Shown here: one piece after another, positions 19,900 through 30,298 of the stretch
Position numbering within the stretch: position 1 is the stretch's first letter
Layout: the number at the start of each line of letters is the position of its first letter
Assembly (NCBI GenBank): GCA_041674405.1
Contig: JBAYVT010000005.1
Location: 77,047-141,046, forward strand
Reading direction: 5' to 3'
Origin: Patescibacteria group bacterium
GTDB lineage: Bacteria > Patescibacteriota > UBA1384 > XYA2-FULL-43-10
Length of the DNA: 64,000 nucleotides
Notes under the pieces: model-generated
What the model saw: the letters and a program-made list of their open reading frames with translations, nothing else
What the model was told of the DNA's origin: nothing
The model's database searches: none
Program-made: the position numbers and the translations under genes

Positions 19900-19954
19900 T
19901 AAATATATCTTATGAAATTTTGATTACAACGATATTATAAACACTACGGAAAAA

Positions 19955-20635
19955 CTATACAACTCTTTTTAATTTCTTCTTTGCCTGTTCTATTTGAATT
20001 ATTGCCTTGACGATGTCCTCATACATTTTATATCGGCTTTTTATCCCGGCCCAGATATCATCATTCTTTTCTTCCTTAATTACCTGGGTTAAACCGTGCA
20101 AAACCACAATCTCACGCCGCTCCTTTGGAACAGCCGCCGTAATCAATGCATCAACGCCGAATCTGGAATGTTTAATTTTTGCAAGTGGAGGCAAATTCTT
20201 CCGCCAAATCACACGTTGGCCGGAGATTGCAGGAAATGCCCTATTGGCGATTTTTGTGGTTGTAAGCTTATCAATATTGAATACACCAAGCGAAAGATCA
20301 GCCGTTTTCATAAATGCCACCGGTCCCAAAAGCTCCAAAATATGCCCCTCTGTTAAACCAATCAAGTCGGCATCCAAAAACAACAAAAGCGGATGGTGCG
20401 AATGTTTAATGCCATTATATAAAGCCATTCCCTTGCCGCCATTTTGTTTGTTTTTAAGAAGGCGTACATTTGAATATTTTTTAACAATTTCGCATGTTTT
20501 ATCCTTTGAGCAATCATCCACAACAATTTTTTCATCAATAAAATCAAGCGGAGCGACTACGTCGAGAACTTTGCGAATATTTTTTGCTTCGTTGTATGCA
20601 CAGATAATCAGTGAAATTTTTTGTTCAAATTTCAT
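19955..20635 (-). CDS. Family 2 glycosyltransferase
   Basis: 226 aa. N-terminal ISLIICAYNEAKNI...VVDDCSKDKT (DxD-type GT-A). Confidence 0.75.
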   Translation of the reverse strand: MKFEQKISLIICAYNEAKNIRKVLDVVAPLDFIDEKIVVDDCSKDKTCEIVKKYSNVRLLKNKQNGGKGMALYNGIKHSHHPLLLFLDADLIGLTEGHILELLGPVAFMKTADLSLGVFNIDKLTTTKIANRAFPAISGQRVIWRKNLPPLAKIKHSRFGVDALITAAVPKERREIVVLHGLTQVIKEEKNDDIWAGIKSRYKMYEDIVKAIIQIEQAKKKLKRVV

Positions 20636-20749
20636 CGCAGACTAATTATACCAAACTATAAAATAAAAATCAGTTTTTGTCGTATAAACGCAGCAACTCC
20701 CACAGACTGGCTGCGGGAGTTGGAGATCTGCCGTTCCCCGGAGGGAACA

Positions 20750-21277
20750 TTACGGCGCGTAGCTGGGGGGAGTGAGATGGCCAGCAATGGTCGTCCCGTT
20801 GTTCGTAGTGACGATGTCACCCTCCGCGGCGAAGTTGGCGGCGAGGCACGCCGCCGCGCCGTCTACCGAGATGTGGTTGCCGTCCATGGCGACCACCTCC
20901 ATCCACCAGGAGCCCTCCTCGTACTGCATCAGAAGATAGGGCTGGGTGCCCTGGCCCAGGTCCAGACTCCGAAGAGCCAGAGACAGGATCTCCTGGCTAG
21001 GCCGGATAGGGACCGACCCGACCTCGACATCGGCAGTGTTGTAGACCTTGATCTGGCCGTTGCCGGTCCCGTCGCGGGACATGGTCAAGTACGTGATGCC
21101 ATCGCCGCTGTCGAGGCGAGCGATGTTGCCCAAGCCGTCTGTGGCCCACTTCACACCCGCCGTCGGGAAGGCCGGGTCCACGCTTCCGCCTCCGCCACCA
21201 CCACAACCAGTCGAGATGAGGATCGCCACCAACATGGCGACCAGTCCGACCAACAACATCCATTTGCGCATGTTCAT
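20750..21277 (-). CDS. High-GC orphan lipoprotein-like protein (start ambiguous: Met at 21304, 21277 or 21271)
   Basis: Signal peptide MRKWMLLVGLVAMLVAILISTGCGGGGGG followed by a G/T/D-rich domain. GC is far above the flanks. The antisense 247-aa ORF is Arg-rich and looks spurious. Confidence 0.5.
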   Translation of the reverse strand: MNMRKWMLLVGLVAMLVAILISTGCGGGGGGSVDPAFPTAGVKWATDGLGNIARLDSGDGITYLTMSRDGTGNGQIKVYNTADVEVGSVPIRPSQEILSLALRSLDLGQGTQPYLLMQYEEGSWWMEVVAMDGNHISVDGAAACLAANFAAEGDIVTTNNGTTIAGHLTPPSYAP

Positions 21278-21540
21278 CACCTGTTCCAGGAGTTCGTACA
21301 CCATGTGGCGGCATACGTATTACAGCGCCATCAAACTAGCATATATTCAGCAATTTGTCAATAATAGATAATTATTTTCTGCCGTTATGCTACCGGCCAC
21401 AAAAAATTCTTCAGCCAAGCCAATCAAAAAATTTCCAACCATCTGGCTGGAAATTTTTTGTCAGACTTGCATACCTTTGTATATCCGAAACACAATGGAT
21501 AAGCATTGTGAAGTTGTTTTTAAAGCTACTTTATCCTAAT

Positions 21541-21572
21541 AAAAATAATCAGCTCTAAACTGATTATTTTTT
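21541..21572 (-). terminator. Intrinsic terminator downstream of rdgB; a near-identical copy lies at 23272-23304
   Basis: AAAAATAATCAG-ctctaaa-CTGATTATTTTTT. Confidence 0.65.
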
Positions 21573-21639
21573 GCAGAAAACATTGGAAGATACTGGAGAT
21601 TGTCTAGCGGTAAAACATTTTTAACGACAATACGGTACT

Positions 21640-22257
21640 TTAAAGACTAAAGTACTTGTCAAGTTCCTTGATCGCTGACCTAAAAGCTTTTCCCCTATGA
21701 TTTATTTCTATTAAATCATTTGGGTCGAACTCAGCATTTGTTTTTTTATAATTAGCATTTTTTGATAAAAATATGGGTGCGTATCCAAAACTTTTTGTTC
21801 CTTTTGGCTCGAGTGCGATGCGACCATCCCACCTTCCTTCGGTTGTCTTAACAAATTTGGTTGAAGGATCATATATAGCAACATTGCAGTTATAATGACA
21901 ACCCCGCATACTCATCGGAATCTCATTCATCTTTGACAGAACTTTTCTGTTATTTGCCTCGTCTGTTCCTTCTTCCGAATAACGGGACGAGCATATTCCC
22001 GGTTCTCCACCAAGAGCATCAATGCAAATTCCACTATCATCAGCAAGCGTAGTCATTTGCAAATTGTCGCCAATTACAATTGCTTTAATTAGCGCATTTC
22101 CTTCAAAACTTTCTGCATTTTCCTGAACCTTAAGATCAGCAATCTTGTCTTTATAATCATAAAGGAATTTCAAGTCATAATTTGAGTTCTTAAAAATCTC
22201 CCGAATTTCCCTTGCCTTACCTTGATTCGCAGTGGCGATTAAAATTGTTTTTTTCAT
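21640..22257 (-). CDS. rdgB: dITP/XTP pyrophosphatase (Ham1/RdgB family)
   Basis: 205 aa. ILIATANQGKAREIREIF... matches the Ham1 signature. Confidence 0.8.
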   Translation of the reverse strand: MKKTILIATANQGKAREIREIFKNSNYDLKFLYDYKDKIADLKVQENAESFEGNALIKAIVIGDNLQMTTLADDSGICIDALGGEPGICSSRYSEEGTDEANNRKVLSKMNEIPMSMRGCHYNCNVAIYDPSTKFVKTTEGRWDGRIALEPKGTKSFGYAPIFLSKNANYKKTNAEFDPNDLIEINHRGKAFRSAIKELDKYFSL

Positions 22258-22474
22258 AAATTATTATTTAGGATATTGTTGGCTAATATAGTATCAGAAA
22301 CACAAGTTCAATTCCAGCCATTTTTTAATGACAAAATATCCAATCTGTAGGTGGATATCTTTGGCAATGTAAATATGCAAAGTTAGAACTTGTTATAATG
22401 CCGCATAATCAAAACGGCCGCCCCCGAAGAGGCGACCGTCTGATAATACACCGGAAACGCTCCGGCGCGACTCA

Positions 22475-23149
22475 CTAGCGAAGGCTGAGGTAGCCTTGCT
22501 TCAGTTGCTCGTGAGAGATGGTGATGGTGGCGTACAGCACCCGGTTCTCGTCGATCAGGCTTCCGGGATTCTCGAAGTTCCAGGACGGCAGCCAGAGCAA
22601 GTTGTCCACGTAGTACTTGAAGCGAACCACAGGGGGGCCTTGCTCGCTGGTCAGGACCTTCACCCTCTCCATCGGAAGAGAGCTAACGAAGGTTGGCACA
22701 TCTCCCCCGCTTTGGTTTTGGGGAAGCGACCAGCAGAAGACATAGCTGACTCCTGGCCGAGACTTTCCCTCGACGCTGCCCTCGACGTAGCCTCCGAGGA
22801 AATTGCCTCCCCCGCTTAGGCTTCCACTGAGGTCAGACTTCTGGCCTTTGCTCACCAGCGGGTTGAAGACCAGTGGATGGGGCCCGAGCAGATGGTATCT
22901 CTCCAACTGCCCAATGTTCCACTTCACCCATCCAGTATCTCTGGCAGACTTCTCTCTGGCCCGCTTGATGGCAGAGTCATAGAGTTCGAAGTTACCTATC
23001 CGTGGGTTAAAGCTTCGTTCCCAGAAGTAGTCGGGCGTGTCGAGCCTGACTTTCAGCCAAGACTTGTCCGCGGGAGTCAGCCCCTTGGAGCAGCCTACAA
23101 CTGACACACCTACCAACAGAACCAACAACACGACAGCGATCTTTCGCAT
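22475..23149 (-). CDS. High-GC orphan lipoprotein
   Basis: 224 aa. MRKIAVVLLVLLVGVSVVGCSKG is a signal peptide plus lipobox (VVGC). SD AGGAAGG upstream. A GC-rich hairpin plus T-tract follows at 22411-22440. Confidence 0.55.
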   Translation of the reverse strand: MRKIAVVLLVLLVGVSVVGCSKGLTPADKSWLKVRLDTPDYFWERSFNPRIGNFELYDSAIKRAREKSARDTGWVKWNIGQLERYHLLGPHPLVFNPLVSKGQKSDLSGSLSGGGNFLGGYVEGSVEGKSRPGVSYVFCWSLPQNQSGGDVPTFVSSLPMERVKVLTSEQGPPVVRFKYYVDNLLWLPSWNFENPGSLIDENRVLYATITISHEQLKQGYLSLR

Positions 23150-23271
23150 CTTGATCGTCCCTTCCTGGATATCGGTCTAGATTTGTGTTTCAGAGCTTAA
23201 ACACAATAACACAATATTACAAATATGTCAATTATTAACTTCATTGAAGTTATATAAATATAGAACTCAAC

Positions 23272-23304
23272 AAAAAATAACCAGCACTAAACTGATTATT
23301 TATT
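23272..23304 (-). terminator. Intrinsic terminator downstream of the NUDIX gene (paralogous copy of 21541-21572)
   Basis: AAAAAATAACCAG-cactaaa-CTGATTATTTATT. Confidence 0.55.
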
Positions 23305-23354
23305 GGCAGGATATAGCAACTGAAATCAGAAACTTTTATTTGAGTGCAAATGTT

Positions 23355-23891
23355 CTATATTAGTTTCTTTTCTTTTAAATATCTTAAACCAACGAGACCC
23401 GTTGCCATGTCTGTCAGCTCTCCGGAAAGCAAGTGTTTCTCAAATTCATTTAAACTTAGTAATACTACTTCGACAAACTCAGTTTTTTCATTTTCTGGTT
23501 CTTTCACTTGTTTGCAATTTAGTGCTATAAAATTATGAAGTTCGGTATCCGAATAAGCACACTTATAAGCCTTATTAACAAGGTAAAATTCTCCTGTATA
23601 ACCAGTTTCTTCCAGTAACTCTCTTTTTATCCCATCAACCGGATATTCATTATTATCGATGCCTCCACCAGGTAGCTCAAGCAATATTTTCTCGCACCCA
23701 GGTCTAAATTGTCTCGCTAGAATTATTTTTTTATCTTCAGTAATCGCCAGCACTGCAGCAACAGGGCCCTCTTTCTTTATATGATAATTCTCAACTTCTC
23801 CATCAGGCATGCGAAAAGTTTTTTTGATAATTTTTCTAAAACCAACCTTAATCGGCTCTTCCTCTTTTATTTTTTTCCACCTTATACTCAT
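23355..23891 (-). CDS. NUDIX hydrolase
   Basis: 178 aa. Nudix box GGGIDNNEYPVDGIKRELLEETGY. Confidence 0.8.
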   Translation of the reverse strand: MSIRWKKIKEEEPIKVGFRKIIKKTFRMPDGEVENYHIKKEGPVAAVLAITEDKKIILARQFRPGCEKILLELPGGGIDNNEYPVDGIKRELLEETGYTGEFYLVNKAYKCAYSDTELHNFIALNCKQVKEPENEKTEFVEVVLLSLNEFEKHLLSGELTDMATGLVGLRYLKEKKLI

Positions 23892-24038
23892 TATTCTTTC
23901 TCCTTTTTATCATTTACCAATATCACTCTAGCAAATTCACGCCAATTGTTCTAACAATGTATTACCTATACAAAAATAACCACTCATAGAGTGGATATTT
24001 TTTGGCGAAGAACAGCGAAAGAAGTTAGAACTTGTAAA

Positions 24039-24677
24039 TTAGTGCCCCGTGATAATAATTGATGGAAATGCTGTTTTAAACAGCTCCAAACGCTCTTTGG
24101 ATTTTTCGATACTTTCGTCGGCGTACTGCTTAATTTTTTTCGATATCTCATTGCCCTTAATGCCATTCACTTTATAATCCGATAATTGCACCTCTGTTAT
24201 ATGATCCCAAATTGGGAAACTTACTTTCTTATTGATAACATCATCGGAAAATCGCTTAGAAATACTCTGATAATAAAATCCCCTGTCAAATGGATGAAAA
24301 TAAACTAGGCAGATTTCATCGGCATGCTTGCCAAGAATTCGTTGCAAAACCGTAGGATCGGCAATGGCCGAATCTAAAGCGATGTTTGAAACGGCTAGCA
24401 TATTATCAATAAACCCTTTGGCTGTAGTTTCAAAAGATTCTTGCCATTCCTTTGGGGCAATCCCGCCATAAACAGTAAAAGCTTCTTTGTCTTTTGCCCC
24501 AAATTTATTCCTCACGCTTTCCCGAACGATCAGATCAAATTCAATATGCTTATAGTTTAGACTTTCTAGCTCCCTGGCAAATGTTGATTTGCCCGTACAG
24601 GTTTTGCCACACAGGACAACTATTTGTGGTTTTTCGCAAATTATTCTTTCTTTCACTTGATTTGTAGTCAATTTCAT
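24039..24677 (-). CDS. P-loop NTPase / kinase-like protein
   Basis: 212 aa. Walker A VVLCGKTCTGKST near the N-terminus; otherwise unassigned. Confidence 0.55.
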   Translation of the reverse strand: MKLTTNQVKERIICEKPQIVVLCGKTCTGKSTFARELESLNYKHIEFDLIVRESVRNKFGAKDKEAFTVYGGIAPKEWQESFETTAKGFIDNMLAVSNIALDSAIADPTVLQRILGKHADEICLVYFHPFDRGFYYQSISKRFSDDVINKKVSFPIWDHITEVQLSDYKVNGIKGNEISKKIKQYADESIEKSKERLELFKTAFPSIIITGH

Positions 24678-24744
24678 TCTTCTAGTTTAGCACTTTTTTA
24701 TTTTCTTCTATCAATTGGGTTATATTCCCGAGTGCCATATACAA

Positions 24745-24946
24745 AAAATCACTAGTCCCAGACTAGCAATCTTTTGGCATGGGCTAGAGGAGGATCTCAC
24801 GTCGGCTATTCGCCTCCCTGGATACCCTCGGTTTCCGGCTCCTTCCGACATCGGGAGACCAAATGTTCTCCCGACCCCACTTTGTTCGACTCCTCTAAAA
24901 ACCAAAAGCCATCCCGCATAGTCAATCTTTGATTGGCGACGTGGGA
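24745..24946 (-). ncRNA. Candidate structured ncRNA, or long structured 3' extension of tRNA-Trp, ending in an intrinsic terminator
   Basis: GC-rich relative to the flanks. Nested hairpins: TAGAGGAG/CTCCTCTA closing stem, GTCGGGAGA-acatttgg-TCTCCCGA, GTCGG...CCGAC. Terminator CTAGTC-tggg-GACTAG plus T6 at 24745-24770. Only Arg/Pro-rich short ORFs overlap it. Confidence 0.4.
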
Positions 24947-25019
24947 TGGCAGGGGCTAGAGGAGTCGAACCTCTGACTAGGGTTTTGGAGACCCCTATTA
25001 TACCGTTTAACTAAGCCCC
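24947..25019 (-). tRNA. tRNA-Trp (anticodon CCA)
   Basis: Sense GGGGCTTAG...GGGGT-CTCCAAA-ACCCT...AGAGG-TTCGACT-CCTCT-AGCCCC-T-GCCA. Anticodon loop CUCCAAA; encoded CCA end. Confidence 0.85.
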
Positions 25020-25104
25020 TAAATGAGTCGTAAGCCCATAAAGTTGAGAGTCTATAAAGTAATTCAACAACTTTATGGACTTTAAAAACTTTACAGACTT
25101 TTGA

Positions 25105-25272
25105 CTACTTTGTTTCTTTATGTAACGTTGATTTTTTGCACTTTTTGCAATATTTTTTAAGCTCGATCCTTTTGATCACATCTTGGCCTTTTAGCCTTTT
25201 TTCAGTGTGATGGCCGCGCTCTTTGCAGACTTCACATTCAAGCGTTACAATTGTTCTTGCATCTTTTGCCAT
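25105..25272 (-). CDS. rpmG: 50S ribosomal protein L33
   Basis: 55 aa from an internal Met: MAKDARTIVTLECEVCKERGHHTEKRLKGQDVIKRIELKKYCKKCKKSTLHKETK (CxxC...CxxC zinc ribbon). SD AAAGGAAAT upstream. The 95-aa track ORF is an upstream extension through tRNA trailer sequence. Confidence 0.85.
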   Translation of the reverse strand: MAKDARTIVTLECEVCKERGHHTEKRLKGQDVIKRIELKKYCKKCKKSTLHKETK

Positions 25273-25383
25273 AATTTCCTTTCGAATATTTCGATTGATT
25301 TTATTATTGAGGCTCCTCGACAGGCTCGGAGTCATTCGACTCATCTGGTTTACCATGAGCGAACAGCTTTGTTGTGAGTCGAA

Positions 25384-25458
25384 TGGAGCCACCTGTCGGA
25401 TTTGGACCGACGACCTACTGTTTACAAAACAGTTGCTCTACCACTGAGCTAAGGTGGC
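25384..25458 (-). tRNA. tRNA-Thr (anticodon UGU)
   Basis: Sense GCCACCT-TA-GCTC-AGTGGTA-GAGC-A-ACTGT-TTTGTAA-ACAGT-AGGTC-GTCGG-TCCAAAT-CCGAC-AGGTGGC-T-CCA. Confidence 0.8.
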
Positions 25459-25459
25459 A

Positions 25460-25546
25460 TGGTGCTGAGAGCAGGATTCGAACCTGCGAAGGCCGGAGGC
25501 CGACAGATTTACAGTCTGTTGCGTTTGACCGCTTCGCTATCTCAGC
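25460..25546 (-). tRNA. tRNA-Tyr (anticodon GUA), class II with long variable arm
   Basis: Sense GCTGAGA...ACAGA-CTGTAAA-TCTGT; variable arm CGGCC-TCC-GGCC; GCAGG-TTCGAAT-CCTGC-TCTCAGC-A-CCA. Confidence 0.85.
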
Positions 25547-25702
25547 AAGATATTAATTTGTAGGCTCCTCGACAAGACCCAACGGGTAGCCATTGGCTCC
25601 TTCGGCTCGGGTCTCGGAGTCATTCGACTCATATGTTTTACTGTGAGCATGTCGCTTTATTGAATGGTTTACCATGAGCGAGGAAAGGAATGACGGGTCG
25701 AA

Positions 25703-25780
25703 TGGAGCCGTTGAGCGGACTTATTCCCTCGACCTACTCCTTACCATGCCTGTCCGCCTCTGGCGGAGAGTTGCCCCCAC
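25703..25780 (-). pseudogene. Degenerate tRNA-Thr(GGU)-like copy (pseudo-tRNA) fused to a structured trailer
   Basis: The sense strand retains ...CATGGTAAGG...AGGTCGAGGG...GGCTCCA, colinear with the adjacent tRNA-Thr(GGU), but the acceptor, anticodon and T stems no longer pair. Confidence 0.45.
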
Positions 25781-25783
25781 CGA

Positions 25784-25859
25784 TGGAGCCGACATCGGGA
25801 ATCGGACCCGAGACCTCATCCTTACCATGGATGCGCTCTACCAACTGAGCTATATCGGC
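25784..25859 (-). tRNA. tRNA-Thr (anticodon GGU)
   Basis: Sense GCCGATA-TA-GCTC-AGTTGGTA-GAGC-G-CATCC-ATGGTAA-GGATG-AGGTC-TCGGG-TCCGATT-CCCGA-TGTCGGC-T-CCA. Confidence 0.8.
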
Positions 25860-25980
25860 ATACATCGGCCGGGGTAAATCTACCAAACCCTAAGGGTCCC
25901 CTTTGGGGCTGAGCCACAACGGCACAATAAATACAAAAATAACATTGAAATTATACCGCAAAATCCTCTCTTTGGCAACC

Positions 25981-30080: not shown

Positions 30081-30298
30081 TGAACTTAACAATACCCCTA
30101 GCATCTGGTAGAATCAGATTGGTTCTGTCGAATCTTAAAATTGGCTAACAATTTACACATTGGAATCCCGATCAGTCGGGATTACTCTGCTTTCGCGGAG
30201 TAAGATCAAAATTTGATTCGGCCGTGGCCGAAGCGTGAGATCATCCACATACTCATTCCAACCAATTTATAAGTATCGACAGAACTTTATTAATTTTC

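What the first reader, a model, noticed from the sequence alone, without database searches (positions are those of the whole stretch)
24745..24946. GC-rich, multiply folded ~200-nt RNA-like element co-oriented with tRNA-Trp and ending in a terminator
Between the tRNA-Trp 3' end (24947) and a clean intrinsic terminator (CTAGTC-tggg-GACTAG-T6, 24745-24770) lies a segment much more GC-rich than typical intergenic DNA here. Read on the minus strand it forms a long closing stem (CTTTTGG...TAGAGGAG / CTCCTCTA...CCAAAAG) around nested hairpins. Part of it is an inverted partial copy of the tRNA-Trp T-arm/acceptor. Only short Arg/Pro-rich ORFs overlap it. It looks like a stable structured ncRNA or an unusual tRNA 3' extension.
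Basis: seen in the sequence. Interest (0 to 1): 0.65.

Follow-up and report, generated by a model that had tools for sequence, protein, structure and literature searches.

The report
Conserved structured insert in tRNA relic
The GC-rich stretch after tRNA-Trp is a folded, roughly 100-nt module wedged into the leftover 3' end of an older tRNA-Trp gene; three other Berkelbacteria-like genomes carry it next to a tRNA gene, it matches no catalogued RNA family, and it looks more like the footprint of an insertion aimed at tRNA genes than a free-standing RNA gene.

Summary
Window 24743-24946 (minus strand) is GC-rich, folds strongly, is co-oriented with tRNA-Trp and ends in a hairpin followed by six T.

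It is a composite of four parts:
- A trailer hairpin (H1) that pairs with the tRNA's own GCCA end.
- A ~100-nt four-helix scaffold ("type A").
- An 18-nt second copy of the tRNA-Trp 3' end. It belongs to an older allele whose 5' strand survives as a 12-nt fragment upstream of the resident tRNA (compensatory U2-A71).
- The ancestral tRNA-Trp terminator.

Relatives show bare tRNA followed by the same terminator (L035, 48/56 identical), short scars, or other inserts at this site.

Type A recurs in three other genomes. In each it ends in the 3' end of the neighbouring tRNA type (Trp or Tyr). Its hairpins covary, and it is as conserved as rpmG. Rfam, phage and plasmid BLAST and Pfam gave no match, and three exact-pattern collection scans returned nothing or chance hits.

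Best reading (about 0.45): the conserved non-coding end of a small insertion that targets tRNA genes and carries no recombinase. Here it would be transcribed as a tRNA trailer. Main rival (about 0.3): a new ncRNA that mimics a tRNA 3' end. Only four members are known and there are no expression data.

The parts
25031..25042 (-). 12-nt fragment TTTATGGGCTTA. It is the leader plus 5' acceptor strand of an older tRNA-Trp allele and an 11/12 copy of the resident tRNA's TTTAGGGGCTTA at 25012-25023. Its U2 is complementary to A71 of the downstream relic.
   Evidence: repeat D3; coordinates; sequence context.
24947..25020 (-). Resident, functional-looking tRNA-Trp(CCA), 74 nt, with CCA encoded.
   Evidence: ARAGORN; Rfam tRNA model, 63 bits.
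24908..24950 (-). Trailer hairpin H1: GCCAUCCCAC...GCGGGAUGGC. Its 5' arm includes the tRNA's own GCCA end. Related hairpins occur in L058 (directly after tRNA-Trp) and inside the L066 insert.
   Evidence: inverted repeat I1: 20-nt arms, 80% complementary; fold; relatives.
24898..24907 (-). U-rich linker TTTTGGTTTT between H1 and the scaffold. Part of it can pair with CCAAAAG at 24771-24777.
24775..24901 (-). The 'type A' unit as matched by covariance model R1: closing helix P1, conserved scaffold, T-loop-like GUGAGAUC, then T-stem 3' strand, acceptor 3' strand, G and CCA.
   Evidence: cmsearch, 118 bits; nhmmer E = 3.6e-32; alignment A2.
24884..24897 (-). P1 5' strand TAGAGGAG plus the conserved UCGAAC. 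It is a perfect inverted copy of the resident tRNA's GTTCGACTCCTCTA.
   Evidence: inverted repeat I2, 14/14.
24851..24874 (-). Helix P2: UCGGGAGA-ACAUUUGG-UCUCCCGA. It covaries with UCGGAAAA/UUUUCCG in L039 and UCGGGAAAC/GUUUCCCG in L003. The 12 nt TCCCGATGTCGG spanning its 3' arm and the next segment also occur at the 3' end of tRNA-Thr(GGT); that match is not significant on its own.
   Evidence: helix 2; E = 0.62.
24837..24850 (-). Conserved purine-rich junction UGUCGGAAGGAGCC.
24820..24836 (-). Helix P4: GGAAACC-GAG-GGUAUCC. In the tRNA-Tyr-linked member it is AAAAACC-GUG-GGUUUUU.
   Evidence: helix 4: two pairs changed on both sides.
24804..24814 (-). Helix P5, a variable hairpin: GGC-GAAUA-GCC here, GCCCCGA/UUGGGGC in L039, GGCAC/GUGCC in L030, GCACCA/UGGUGC in L003.
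   Evidence: helix 5: three pairs changed on both sides, none invariant.
24793..24803 (-). Conserved GACGUGAGAUC, a T-loop-like segment. In every member it stands where UUCGAnU would be in a tRNA.
24775..24792 (-). Displaced 3' end of the older tRNA-Trp: CTCCTCT (T-stem 3' strand), AGCCCAT (acceptor 3' strand), G, CCA. It matches the resident tRNA's 3' end at 17 of 18 positions.
   Evidence: repeat D1; tRNA-Trp HMM positions 57-74.
24743..24775 (-). Ancestral tRNA-Trp intrinsic terminator, AAAAGAUUGCUAGUCUGGGACUAGUGAUUUUUU, which can work in both directions. In L035, L004, L040 and L049 the homologous terminator follows a ...TGCCA end directly: the tRNA's own end in L035 and L049, the downstream second copy in L004 and L040.
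   Evidence: 48/56 identity with L035 across tRNA end, terminator and flank.

Best explanation
The segment is the interior and right end of a small non-coding insertion in an ancestral tRNA-Trp gene.

Shown:
- The ancestral gene (acceptor stem AUGGGCU/AGCCCAU) once sat directly in front of the terminator at 24743-24775.
- Only its first 9 nt (25031-25042, with 3 nt of leader) and its last 18 nt (24775-24792) remain.
- Between them lie an intact tRNA-Trp of a different allele, a trailer hairpin H1, and a ~100-nt conserved four-helix scaffold (type A). The scaffold occupies the T-loop position of the relic. It is closed by a helix built from the relic's T-stem 3' strand and an inverted copy of that strand.

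Inferred mechanism:
- A family of small structured modules enters tRNA genes at the T-arm or 3' end. The recombination core is the last 17-21 nt of the tRNA (T-stem 3' strand to CCA).
- The entering DNA supplies a new tRNA 3' end, or a whole tRNA, so the essential gene stays functional.
- The old 3' end is pushed downstream, next to the old terminator.
- The scaffold is the conserved end of the module and is kept because the module's own spread or maintenance needs it. It may act as folded single-stranded DNA or as RNA. Which enzyme acts on it is unknown.
- No recombinase is encoded nearby, so the module would be non-autonomous.

In this genome the whole segment is probably transcribed from the tRNA-cluster promoter as the 3' trailer of tRNA-Trp. 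It would be cut off during normal tRNA end maturation; this step is inferred, not shown.
For: 1. Repeats and compensatory change. There is an 18-nt direct repeat of the tRNA 3' end and a 12-nt repeat of its 5' end. The single differences, G2>U and C71>A, compensate each other, so the two fragments come from one older tRNA.

2. Ancestral position. The relic 3' end, terminator and flank align 48/56 with the tRNA end, terminator and flank of L035. The same terminator follows a ...TGCCA end in L004, L040 and L049.

3. Variable site. Downstream of tRNA-Trp, relatives carry:
- nothing but a terminator (L015-19, L026, L028, L032, L035-37, L045, L051, L054);
- short scars that end in a second ...TGCCA (L005-8, L011, L034, L044, L048);
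- a large serine recombinase gene that overlaps the tRNA end (L002/L024);
- a DndB/methyltransferase island (L003).
Against the closest genome, synteny breaks exactly at the tRNA-Trp 3' end.

4. Filled and empty site pairs for analogous modules:
- L053 equals L052 plus 122 nt that end in a perfect 21-nt repeat (type B).
- L066 has the L029-type flank, with terminator, scaffold and repeat inserted before it (type D).

5. Type A family. It recurs in L039, L030 and L003. It always ends in the 3' end of the neighbouring tRNA type: Trp in three, and the local tRNA-Tyr's own sequence in L003. Its 5' end is always an inverted copy of the local T-loop/T-stem.

6. Constraint on the scaffold:
- 91.7% of cells are paired and 8 pairs changed on both sides. 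None of 500 shuffles reached this, and slid controls gave 28-51% paired.
- Scaffold identity is 65-81%, against rpmG DNA at 73-79% and spacers at 29-62%.

7. In L039 and L030 the unit lies behind a strong terminator and has no obvious promoter. L004 carries a decayed short version.
Against: - No integrase, recombinase or transposase lies within about 10 kb on either side in the window, nor next to the L039 or L030 copies.
- No copy was found in phage, plasmid or viral collections.
- No genome is known to carry multiple copies. No excised form or empty and filled alleles within one population were seen for type A itself.
- The pairwise divergence of the scaffold tracks that of rpmG. That fits vertical inheritance of a functional gene as well as it fits a mobile module.
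- A circle of 120-230 bp is small for classical site-specific recombination.
- The 5' relic upstream of the resident tRNA is not explained by a simple one-step integration at the 3' end. It needs either replacement of the whole tRNA body or a second event.
- Only four family members are known, so the covariation statistics are thin.
Confidence: 0.45

Rival explanations
1. The type A unit is a real ncRNA gene that mimics a tRNA 3' end. It would be a T-arm, acceptor 3' strand and NCCA carrying a conserved ~95-nt four-helix domain in place of the T-loop. It would have arisen by duplication of the 3' part of the adjacent tRNA. It would act in trans or in cis, for example as a decoy or substrate for enzymes that bind tRNA 3' ends or the T-arm, or as a processing or stability element of the tRNA/rpmG operon.
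For: - Helices covary and the single-stranded motifs UCGAAC, UGUCGGAAGGARCC and GCGUGAGAUY are conserved.
- Conservation equals that of rpmG and is well above that of spacers.
- The unit is always on the tRNA strand.
- In the window it lies inside the operon and upstream of the terminator. In L003 it lies in the rpmG 5' region.
- No recombinase is nearby.
Against: - In L039 and L030 it sits behind a strong terminator with no promoter-like sequence.
- It is present in 4 of about 45 related loci and at four different positions relative to the tRNA and terminator.
- Decayed and deleted versions exist (L004).
- The 3' tail copies the neighbouring tRNA, which is the classic DNA-level signature of insertion into a tRNA gene.
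- The unit alone is not thermodynamically unusual (z = -1.5).
- G-U against A-C counts give no strand preference (5 against 3).
Confidence: 0.3
2. The segment is purely decayed tRNA pseudogene material. Local duplications and rearrangements of the tRNA cluster left tRNA-Trp and tRNA-Thr fragments that still fold and stay GC-rich because of their ancestry. There would be no present function and no dedicated mobility.
For: - The cluster is full of tRNA relics: a tRNA-Thr(GGT) 3' relic at 25703-25748, a 5' mini-fragment at 25860-25869, and two decayed Thr(GGT)-like modules at 25311-25383 and 25563-25702.
- tRNA order differs among relatives.
- The 3' half of the type A HMM aligns weakly to tRNA-Trp positions 17-74 (E about 0.1-0.2; L039).
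- A 12-nt match to the tRNA-Thr(GGT) 3' end lies inside P2/J.
Against: - Neutral relics should not stay 65-81% identical across lineages whose spacers are unalignable.
- Neutral relics should not keep four helices through compensatory changes.
- The scaffold is the same whether the tail is Trp or Tyr, so it is not simply the decayed body of the local tRNA.
Confidence: 0.15
3. The scaffold is an intron in the T-loop of a second, still functional tRNA-Trp gene. It would be a group I intron or an archaeal-type intron.
For: - Patescibacteria tRNA genes often carry group I introns, including at the unusual position 35/36 (PMC13011429).
- In relatives L030, L031, L033 and L043 an outer tRNA-Trp is interrupted at 35/36.
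Against: - There is no Rfam group I or group II intron hit, even at E <= 10.
- About 100 nt is too short for a group I intron (general knowledge).
- In the window the outer gene lacks positions 10-48 altogether, so no functional tRNA could be spliced together.
- L039 and L030 have no 5' half at all.
Confidence: 0.03

Closest known systems
tRNA-gene fragments (attL/attR repeats) left by integrative elements, including integrase-less remnants flanked by att sites ('cis-mobilizable elements', CIMEs)
   Same: - A direct repeat of the tRNA 3' end lies a short distance downstream of an intact tRNA.
- The old 3' end stays next to the old flank.
- The site is hypervariable among relatives. One relative has a serine recombinase abutting the tRNA and another has a defence island.
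- Partial tRNA genes of this origin are a recognised annotation problem (PMC9897764).
   Different: - The insert is only about 170-240 bp, has no genes, and has no integrase anywhere near.
- Its interior is a conserved, covarying multi-helix scaffold rather than arm-type protein-binding sites.
- It starts with an inverted copy of the target.
- In the window a 5' fragment of the old tRNA is displaced as well, so the whole tRNA body was replaced.
Folded single-stranded attP of CTX phage and other Xer-exploiting elements (from general knowledge: two inverted dif-like half sites about 90 nt apart anneal to form the recombination site)
   Same: Two copies of the target sequence lie in inverted orientation about 95 nt apart. 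They can anneal (helix P1) into a duplex that mimics the chromosomal target.
   Different: - The target here is a tRNA T-arm, not dif.
- Nothing shows a single-stranded DNA stage.
- No Xer-type enzyme has been linked to these units.
- The resemblance is structural only.
TnpB reRNA / omega-RNA of IS200/IS605 elements (from general knowledge: a structured scaffold at the transposon right end, followed at its 3' side by flanking target sequence used as guide)
   Same: The geometry matches: a conserved structured scaffold of about 100 nt, followed at its 3' side by 17-21 nt that equal the flanking target (the tRNA 3' end).
   Different: - No tnpB, iscB or tnpA gene is present in any locus.
- No Rfam hit to IS605-associated RNA motifs was found.
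- The left junction carries a duplicate of the target, which peel-and-paste transposition does not make.
tRNA-like structures in non-tRNA RNAs (tmRNA tRNA-like domain, viral 3' tRNA-like structures, mascRNA)
   Same: The unit has a T-arm-like helix, an acceptor 3' strand and an encoded NCCA at its 3' end, with a large non-tRNA domain attached.
   Different: - L039 and L030 have no 5' acceptor strand, and in the window the 5' strand is a split, distant one.
- T-loop positions 55-56 are changed in all members.
- ARAGORN finds no tmRNA.
Group I introns in Patescibacteria tRNA genes (PMC13011429)
   Same: Both are structured insertions in loops of tRNA genes in the same phylum. The outer tRNA-Trp genes of some relatives are interrupted at position 35/36.
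   Different: - The inserts here are too short for a group I intron and give no group I model hit.
- The 5' exon would end in C, not U.
- The inserts in relatives contain a whole tRNA gene.

Membership tests
Any Rfam 15 family | Covariance-model match at or near the family's gathering score | tested here: not met
   - The gathering-threshold scan of the window found only five tRNAs.
- An E <= 10 scan of 24500-25300 gave only chance-level miRNA and lncRNA hits.
- An E <= 5 scan of six related loci gave no hit on any type A, B or D unit.
tRNA | Complete cloverleaf: acceptor stem with both strands, D-arm, anticodon arm and a 7-nt T-loop | tested here: not met
   - ARAGORN and the Rfam tRNA model call only 24947-25020.
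- The tRNA-Trp HMM aligns only positions 57-74 of the relic.
- Positions 10-48 of the outer gene are absent.
Intrinsic terminator | GC-containing hairpin followed directly by a U-run on the transcribed strand | tested here: met
   The hairpin is at 24752-24766, extended to 16 bp by the flanking A-run and T-run, and T6 lies at 24743-24748. A homologous terminator directly follows tRNA-Trp in L035.
Integrative-element att scar at a tRNA gene | Direct repeat of the tRNA 3' end bounding the inserted DNA | tested here: met
   17/18 repeat, 24775-24792 against 24947-24964. Analogous repeats of 18-21 nt occur in L004, L053 and L066.
Integrative-element att scar at a tRNA gene | Empty site in related genomes | tested here: met
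   L035 has the tRNA followed directly by the same terminator and flank. L052/L053 and L029/L066 are empty and filled pairs for types B and D.
Integrative-element att scar at a tRNA gene | Integrase or recombinase gene in or next to the element | tested here: not met
   Pfam on the neighbouring ORFs of the window found none. ORF lists of L030 and L039 show none. Only L002/L024 has a serine recombinase at this site, and it has no type A unit.
TnpB/IscB guide RNA (omega-RNA, reRNA) | Adjacent tnpB or iscB gene and IS200/IS605 ends | tested here: not met
   No such ORF is present in the window or in the loci. There are no Rfam IS605-related hits.
Group I intron | Group I core (P3-P8) detectable by the Rfam model; size of about 200 nt or more; flanking exons that make a complete tRNA | tested here: not met
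   No Intron_gpI hit at E <= 10. The scaffold is about 100 nt. The outer tRNA is incomplete.
Protein-coding gene | Conserved ORF or a protein-family hit | tested here: not met
   The three overlapping ORFs (52-68 aa) have no Pfam hit at E <= 1. The homologues differ by indels of 1, 4 and 5 nt.
Structured functional RNA (generic) | Compensatory base changes that keep helices across homologues | tested here: met
   27 pairs, 91.7% of cells paired, and 8 pairs changed on both sides. None of 500 shuffles reached this, and slid controls gave 28-51% paired. There are only 4 sequences, and the same signal would be expected from a DNA hairpin.
Structured functional RNA (generic) | Evidence of a discrete transcript | not testable with these tools
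   No expression data are available. The promoter scan finds no promoter between the tRNA cluster promoter (25978-25950) and the unit.

The most novel reading that the evidence does not exclude
Types A, B and D would be members of an undescribed class of protein-less, highly structured mini-elements of 100-230 nt in CPR bacteria.

They would home to the T-arm or 3' end of tRNA genes. Their spread would depend on a folded nucleic-acid scaffold whose closing helix mimics the target. Resident tRNA genes would be replaced or repaired in the process, giving 'tRNA inside tRNA relic' arrangements.

Alternatively, the scaffold with its tRNA 3' tail would be a new tRNA-end-mimicking ncRNA family.
Probability: 0.25. 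Interest if true: 0.8.

Novelty: new variant of a known kind. Interest (0 to 1): 0.6.

Why it matters
If the reading is right, tRNA genes in these very small genomes are being overwritten repeatedly by tiny non-coding structured modules. Each event leaves a layered record of old tRNA ends.

This matters in three ways:
- Annotation. Partial tRNA copies and GC-rich 'ncRNA-like' spacers next to tRNA genes in CPR genomes should not be called new RNA genes without comparative checks.
- Mobile-element biology. An insertion that keeps a conserved, covarying ~100-nt scaffold but encodes no enzyme needs a helper, or an RNA or single-stranded-DNA based mechanism, that is not yet known.
- A testable question. 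The work yields a concrete covariance model (type A) and clear empty and filled site pairs, so the question can be tested on metagenomic reads and transcriptomes.

Tried and rejected
Searches that found nothing:
- Rfam at gathering and permissive thresholds, on the window and on six related loci, gave nothing.
- Exact or degenerate pattern scans for interior segments gave nothing real. Metagenome contigs returned two chance hits in high-GC contigs. Genome contigs returned none. Viral contigs returned none, or one chance hit in a coding region.
- blastn against phages and plasmids gave nothing beyond a chance 44-nt Streptomyces match.
- A search for further copies in the window found none.
- Covariance model R1 over 375 kb of loci plus the window found only the four members and none in L066-L070.

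Readings considered and rejected:
- Protein-coding: rejected.
- SRP RNA, tmRNA, 6S RNA, hammerhead and other small ribozymes, T-box, group I intron. I considered these from sequence motifs. I rejected them because no model matched and, on my own reading of the sequence, the defining motifs are absent.
- A degenerate full tRNA, including the anticodon-loop-like AUCCAGG/GUCUAGA. Rejected because no anticodon stem forms and the same scaffold carries a tRNA-Tyr tail in L003.
- Assembly chimera. Rejected because identical architectures recur in independent samples and assemblers (L005-L008; L011/L013/L014/L038).

Left unresolved:
- The structured region upstream of tRNA-Pro (30161-30267) shares only the 'hairpin + GCGTGAGATC' motif. 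Its L025 counterpart is diverged, so I did not count it as a member.

Full report
**Observation.** The window is a 40% GC, CPR-type genome. The best named rpmG (L33) relatives are 'bacterium ADurb.Bin212' and Candidatus Berkelbacteria.

On the minus strand the gene order is:
- a promoter-like site at 25978-25950
- tRNA-Thr(GGT)
- tRNA-Tyr
- tRNA-Thr(UGU)
- rpmG
- tRNA-Trp (25020-24947)
- the flagged segment
- a hairpin followed by T6 (24766-24743)
- an unrelated AAA-type ORF

- GC is 0.49-0.55 against about 0.35 around it.
- The 211-nt stretch folds with z = -4.5.
- The closing stem TAGAGGAG/CTCCTCTA appears in the fold.
- There is a perfect 14-nt inverted copy of the tRNA T-loop/T-stem.

Two qualifications apply:
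- The inner 123 nt alone are not exceptional (z = -1.5).
- The plus strand folds equally well.

Positions 24775-24792 are a direct 17/18 copy of the last 18 nt of tRNA-Trp, from the T-stem 3' strand to CCA. Positions 25031-25042 are an 11/12 copy of its first 9 nt plus 3 nt of leader.

The single differences are G2>U in the 5' fragment and C71>A in the 3' fragment. They restore a base pair with each other. The two fragments are therefore the two ends of one older tRNA-Trp allele. The present tRNA and the flagged segment lie inside that older gene.

The older 3' end, the terminator and the next 20 nt align 48/56 with L035. In L035 an intact tRNA-Trp is followed directly by that terminator. So the relic, not the resident tRNA, occupies the ancestral position.

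**Relatives.** I collected about 70 loci through L33 homologues. The DNA just 3' of tRNA-Trp is hypervariable:
- Many loci have tRNA followed directly by a terminator.
- About 15 of about 45 non-identical loci have a second '...TGCCA' within 300 nt, often from a different tRNA-Trp allele than the resident one.
- L002/L024 has a large serine recombinase gene overlapping the tRNA end.
- L003 has a DndB/methyltransferase island.

Against the closest genome, synteny breaks exactly at the tRNA-Trp 3' end and resumes about 5-7 kb further on.

Two pairs of loci show the site filled and empty:
- L053 equals L052 plus 122 nt that end in a perfect 21-nt repeat.
- L066 keeps the flank that directly follows tRNA-Trp in L029, with a terminator, a ~190-nt GC-rich scaffold and an 18-nt repeat inserted before it.

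**The type A family.** An HMM built from the window and its first homologue (L039) found two more members:
- L030, about 750 nt from tRNA-Trp, behind the same terminator as in L039.
- L003, where the unit follows tRNA-Tyr and ends in the tRNA-Tyr 3' end.

All four share the same plan:
- an inverted copy of the local T-loop/T-stem (helix P1, 5' strand)
- UCGAAC
- hairpin P2
- UGUCGGAAGGARCC
- hairpin P4
- variable hairpin P5
- GCGUGAGAUY, a T-loop-like segment
- the T-stem 3' strand, acceptor 3' strand, one nucleotide and CCA of the neighbouring tRNA type

Support for the helices:
- 91.7% of cells are paired.
- 8 of 27 pairs changed on both sides.
- None of 500 shuffles reached this.
- Controls with the partner slid by 1-3 columns gave 28-51% paired.

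P5 has a different sequence in every member.

Scaffold identity is 65-81%. That compares with 73-79% for rpmG DNA, 78-89% for tRNA-Trp and 29-62% for spacers. The scaffold is therefore under constraint.

A covariance model found only these four in 375 kb. Rfam has nothing on any of them. The overlapping ORFs have no Pfam hit, and the homologues differ by frame-breaking indels.

**Interpretation.** The facts point to DNA-level insertion into tRNA genes:
- The tails copy the neighbouring tRNA.
- The old ends are displaced next to the old flanks.
- Filled and empty sites both exist.
- Different alleles sit inside and outside.
- Distribution is patchy and decayed copies exist (L004).
- Two members lie behind a terminator with no promoter.

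The scaffold would be the conserved functional end of a non-autonomous module.

Several facts keep confidence moderate:
- No recombinase was found anywhere near.
- No phage or plasmid copy was found.
- The 5' relic is unexplained by one-step integration.
- Only four members are known.
- The scaffold's divergence parallels rpmG.

The same conservation and covariation would be expected of a real ncRNA that mimics a tRNA 3' end. That is the main rival. Neutral tRNA-pseudogene debris is unlikely for the scaffold, although the surrounding cluster is full of such debris. An intron reading fails because the outer gene lacks its middle.

**Comparison with known systems.** The nearest known kind is the tRNA-fragment repeat left by integrative elements, including integrase-less att-flanked remnants (PMC9897764 for the annotation problem).

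This case differs in four ways:
- its very small size
- the lack of any gene
- a conserved, covarying scaffold that starts with an inverted copy of the target
- replacement of the whole tRNA body

It only resembles folded single-stranded attP sites and TnpB guide-RNA geometry. Tested defining features of these, adjacent enzyme genes and model hits, are not met. Group I introns, which are common in Patescibacteria tRNA genes (PMC13011429), were excluded.

**Verdict.** The best classification is a new variant of tRNA-gene-targeted insertion carrying an uncatalogued conserved structured module. There is a fair chance, about 0.25, that it represents something new: a protein-less structured homing element or a new tRNA-end-mimic RNA.

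Noticed in passing
L005-L008, L011/L038, L030, L031, L033, L034, L040, L043, L044 (regions around tRNA-Trp): In many relatives the called tRNA-Trp is nested inside a second tRNA-Trp of a different allele. The outer 5' part, up to the anticodon (CTCC or CTCCAA), lies just upstream. The outer 3' part lies just downstream. The two outer acceptor strands pair with each other. The inner tRNA is flanked by inverted repeats that covary between loci and is usually preceded by TGAT. In L034 the inner tRNA is a 76-nt foreign type like that of L047. Between L030 and L043 the inner and outer alleles are swapped.
   Followed up: partly
L030, L031, L011, L040, L005, L043, L033 (outer tRNA-Trp 5' parts): GC-rich tetraloop-type hairpins are inserted in the D-loop region of the outer tRNA-Trp genes. 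Between L030 and L031, and between L011 and L040, they show compensatory changes (for example CAGCC/GGCTG against CCGCC/GGCGG).
   Followed up: no
L031 4568-4643 and L053 4286-4384: A second scaffold family ('type B', about 85 nt: GGAGTCGAAAGyCGGAGGCGCGACTGGCGyCGAGrCGGGGTCGAG...). It has the same plan: an inverted T-loop copy, a scaffold, and the tRNA-Trp 3' end. In L053 it is a 122-nt insertion with a perfect 21-nt repeat relative to L052.
   Followed up: partly
L066 2764-2989: A third insert ('type D'): a terminator, a ~190-nt GC-rich region holding an H1-like hairpin (TCCCACGTGC...GTGGGATGG), and a second copy of the tRNA-Trp 3' end. It is inserted before the TGAACCAyG flank that directly follows tRNA-Trp in L029.
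   Followed up: partly
window 25703-25748, 25860-25869, 25311-25383, 25563-25702 (minus strand): tRNA-Thr(GGT) shows the same pattern. There is a 10-nt 5' mini-fragment just upstream and a 3' relic (anticodon loop to CCA) downstream. There are also two copies of a decayed Thr(GGT)-like module (TTCGACyC...CGCTCATGGTAAACCA...GAGTCGAATGACTCCGAG...TGTCGAGGAGCC), one of them directly upstream of rpmG.
   Followed up: partly
window 30161-30267 (+), 30 nt upstream of tRNA-Pro: A structured GC-rich unit (z = -3.7) with closing helix TTGGAAT/ATTCCAA followed by CCA. It shares the 'hairpin + GCGTGAGATC' motif with type A. The homologous spacer in L025 and L024 is similar in length but diverged.
   Followed up: partly
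window 22475-23149 (-): A 224-aa lipoprotein-like ORF with 54-60% GC in a 40% GC genome and no Pfam hit. It lies in the stretch (about 19900-24700) that has no counterpart in the closest genome, so it is probably horizontally acquired.
   Followed up: no
L002/L024 10287-11894 (-): A large serine recombinase gene (Resolvase, Recombinase and Zn_ribbon_recom domains) whose 3' end overlaps the 3' end of tRNA-Trp. It is followed by more than 9 kb of unannotated genes, so an integrated element sits at the same site in a close relative.
   Followed up: partly
L011 2111-2392; L069 860-1132; L070 1105-1377; L009, L029 and L042 about 130-160 nt after tRNA-Trp: Small GIY-YIG nuclease-domain ORFs (about 90 aa, MYYVY...) recur next to the tRNA/rpmG/tRNA-Trp cluster in several relatives. 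They could be relevant to turnover of the tRNA genes.
   Followed up: no
window 25384-25859 against L001 and L003: The order of tRNA-Thr(UGU), tRNA-Tyr and tRNA-Thr(GGU) upstream of rpmG differs among the window, L001 and L003. The cluster has been rearranged repeatedly.
   Followed up: no
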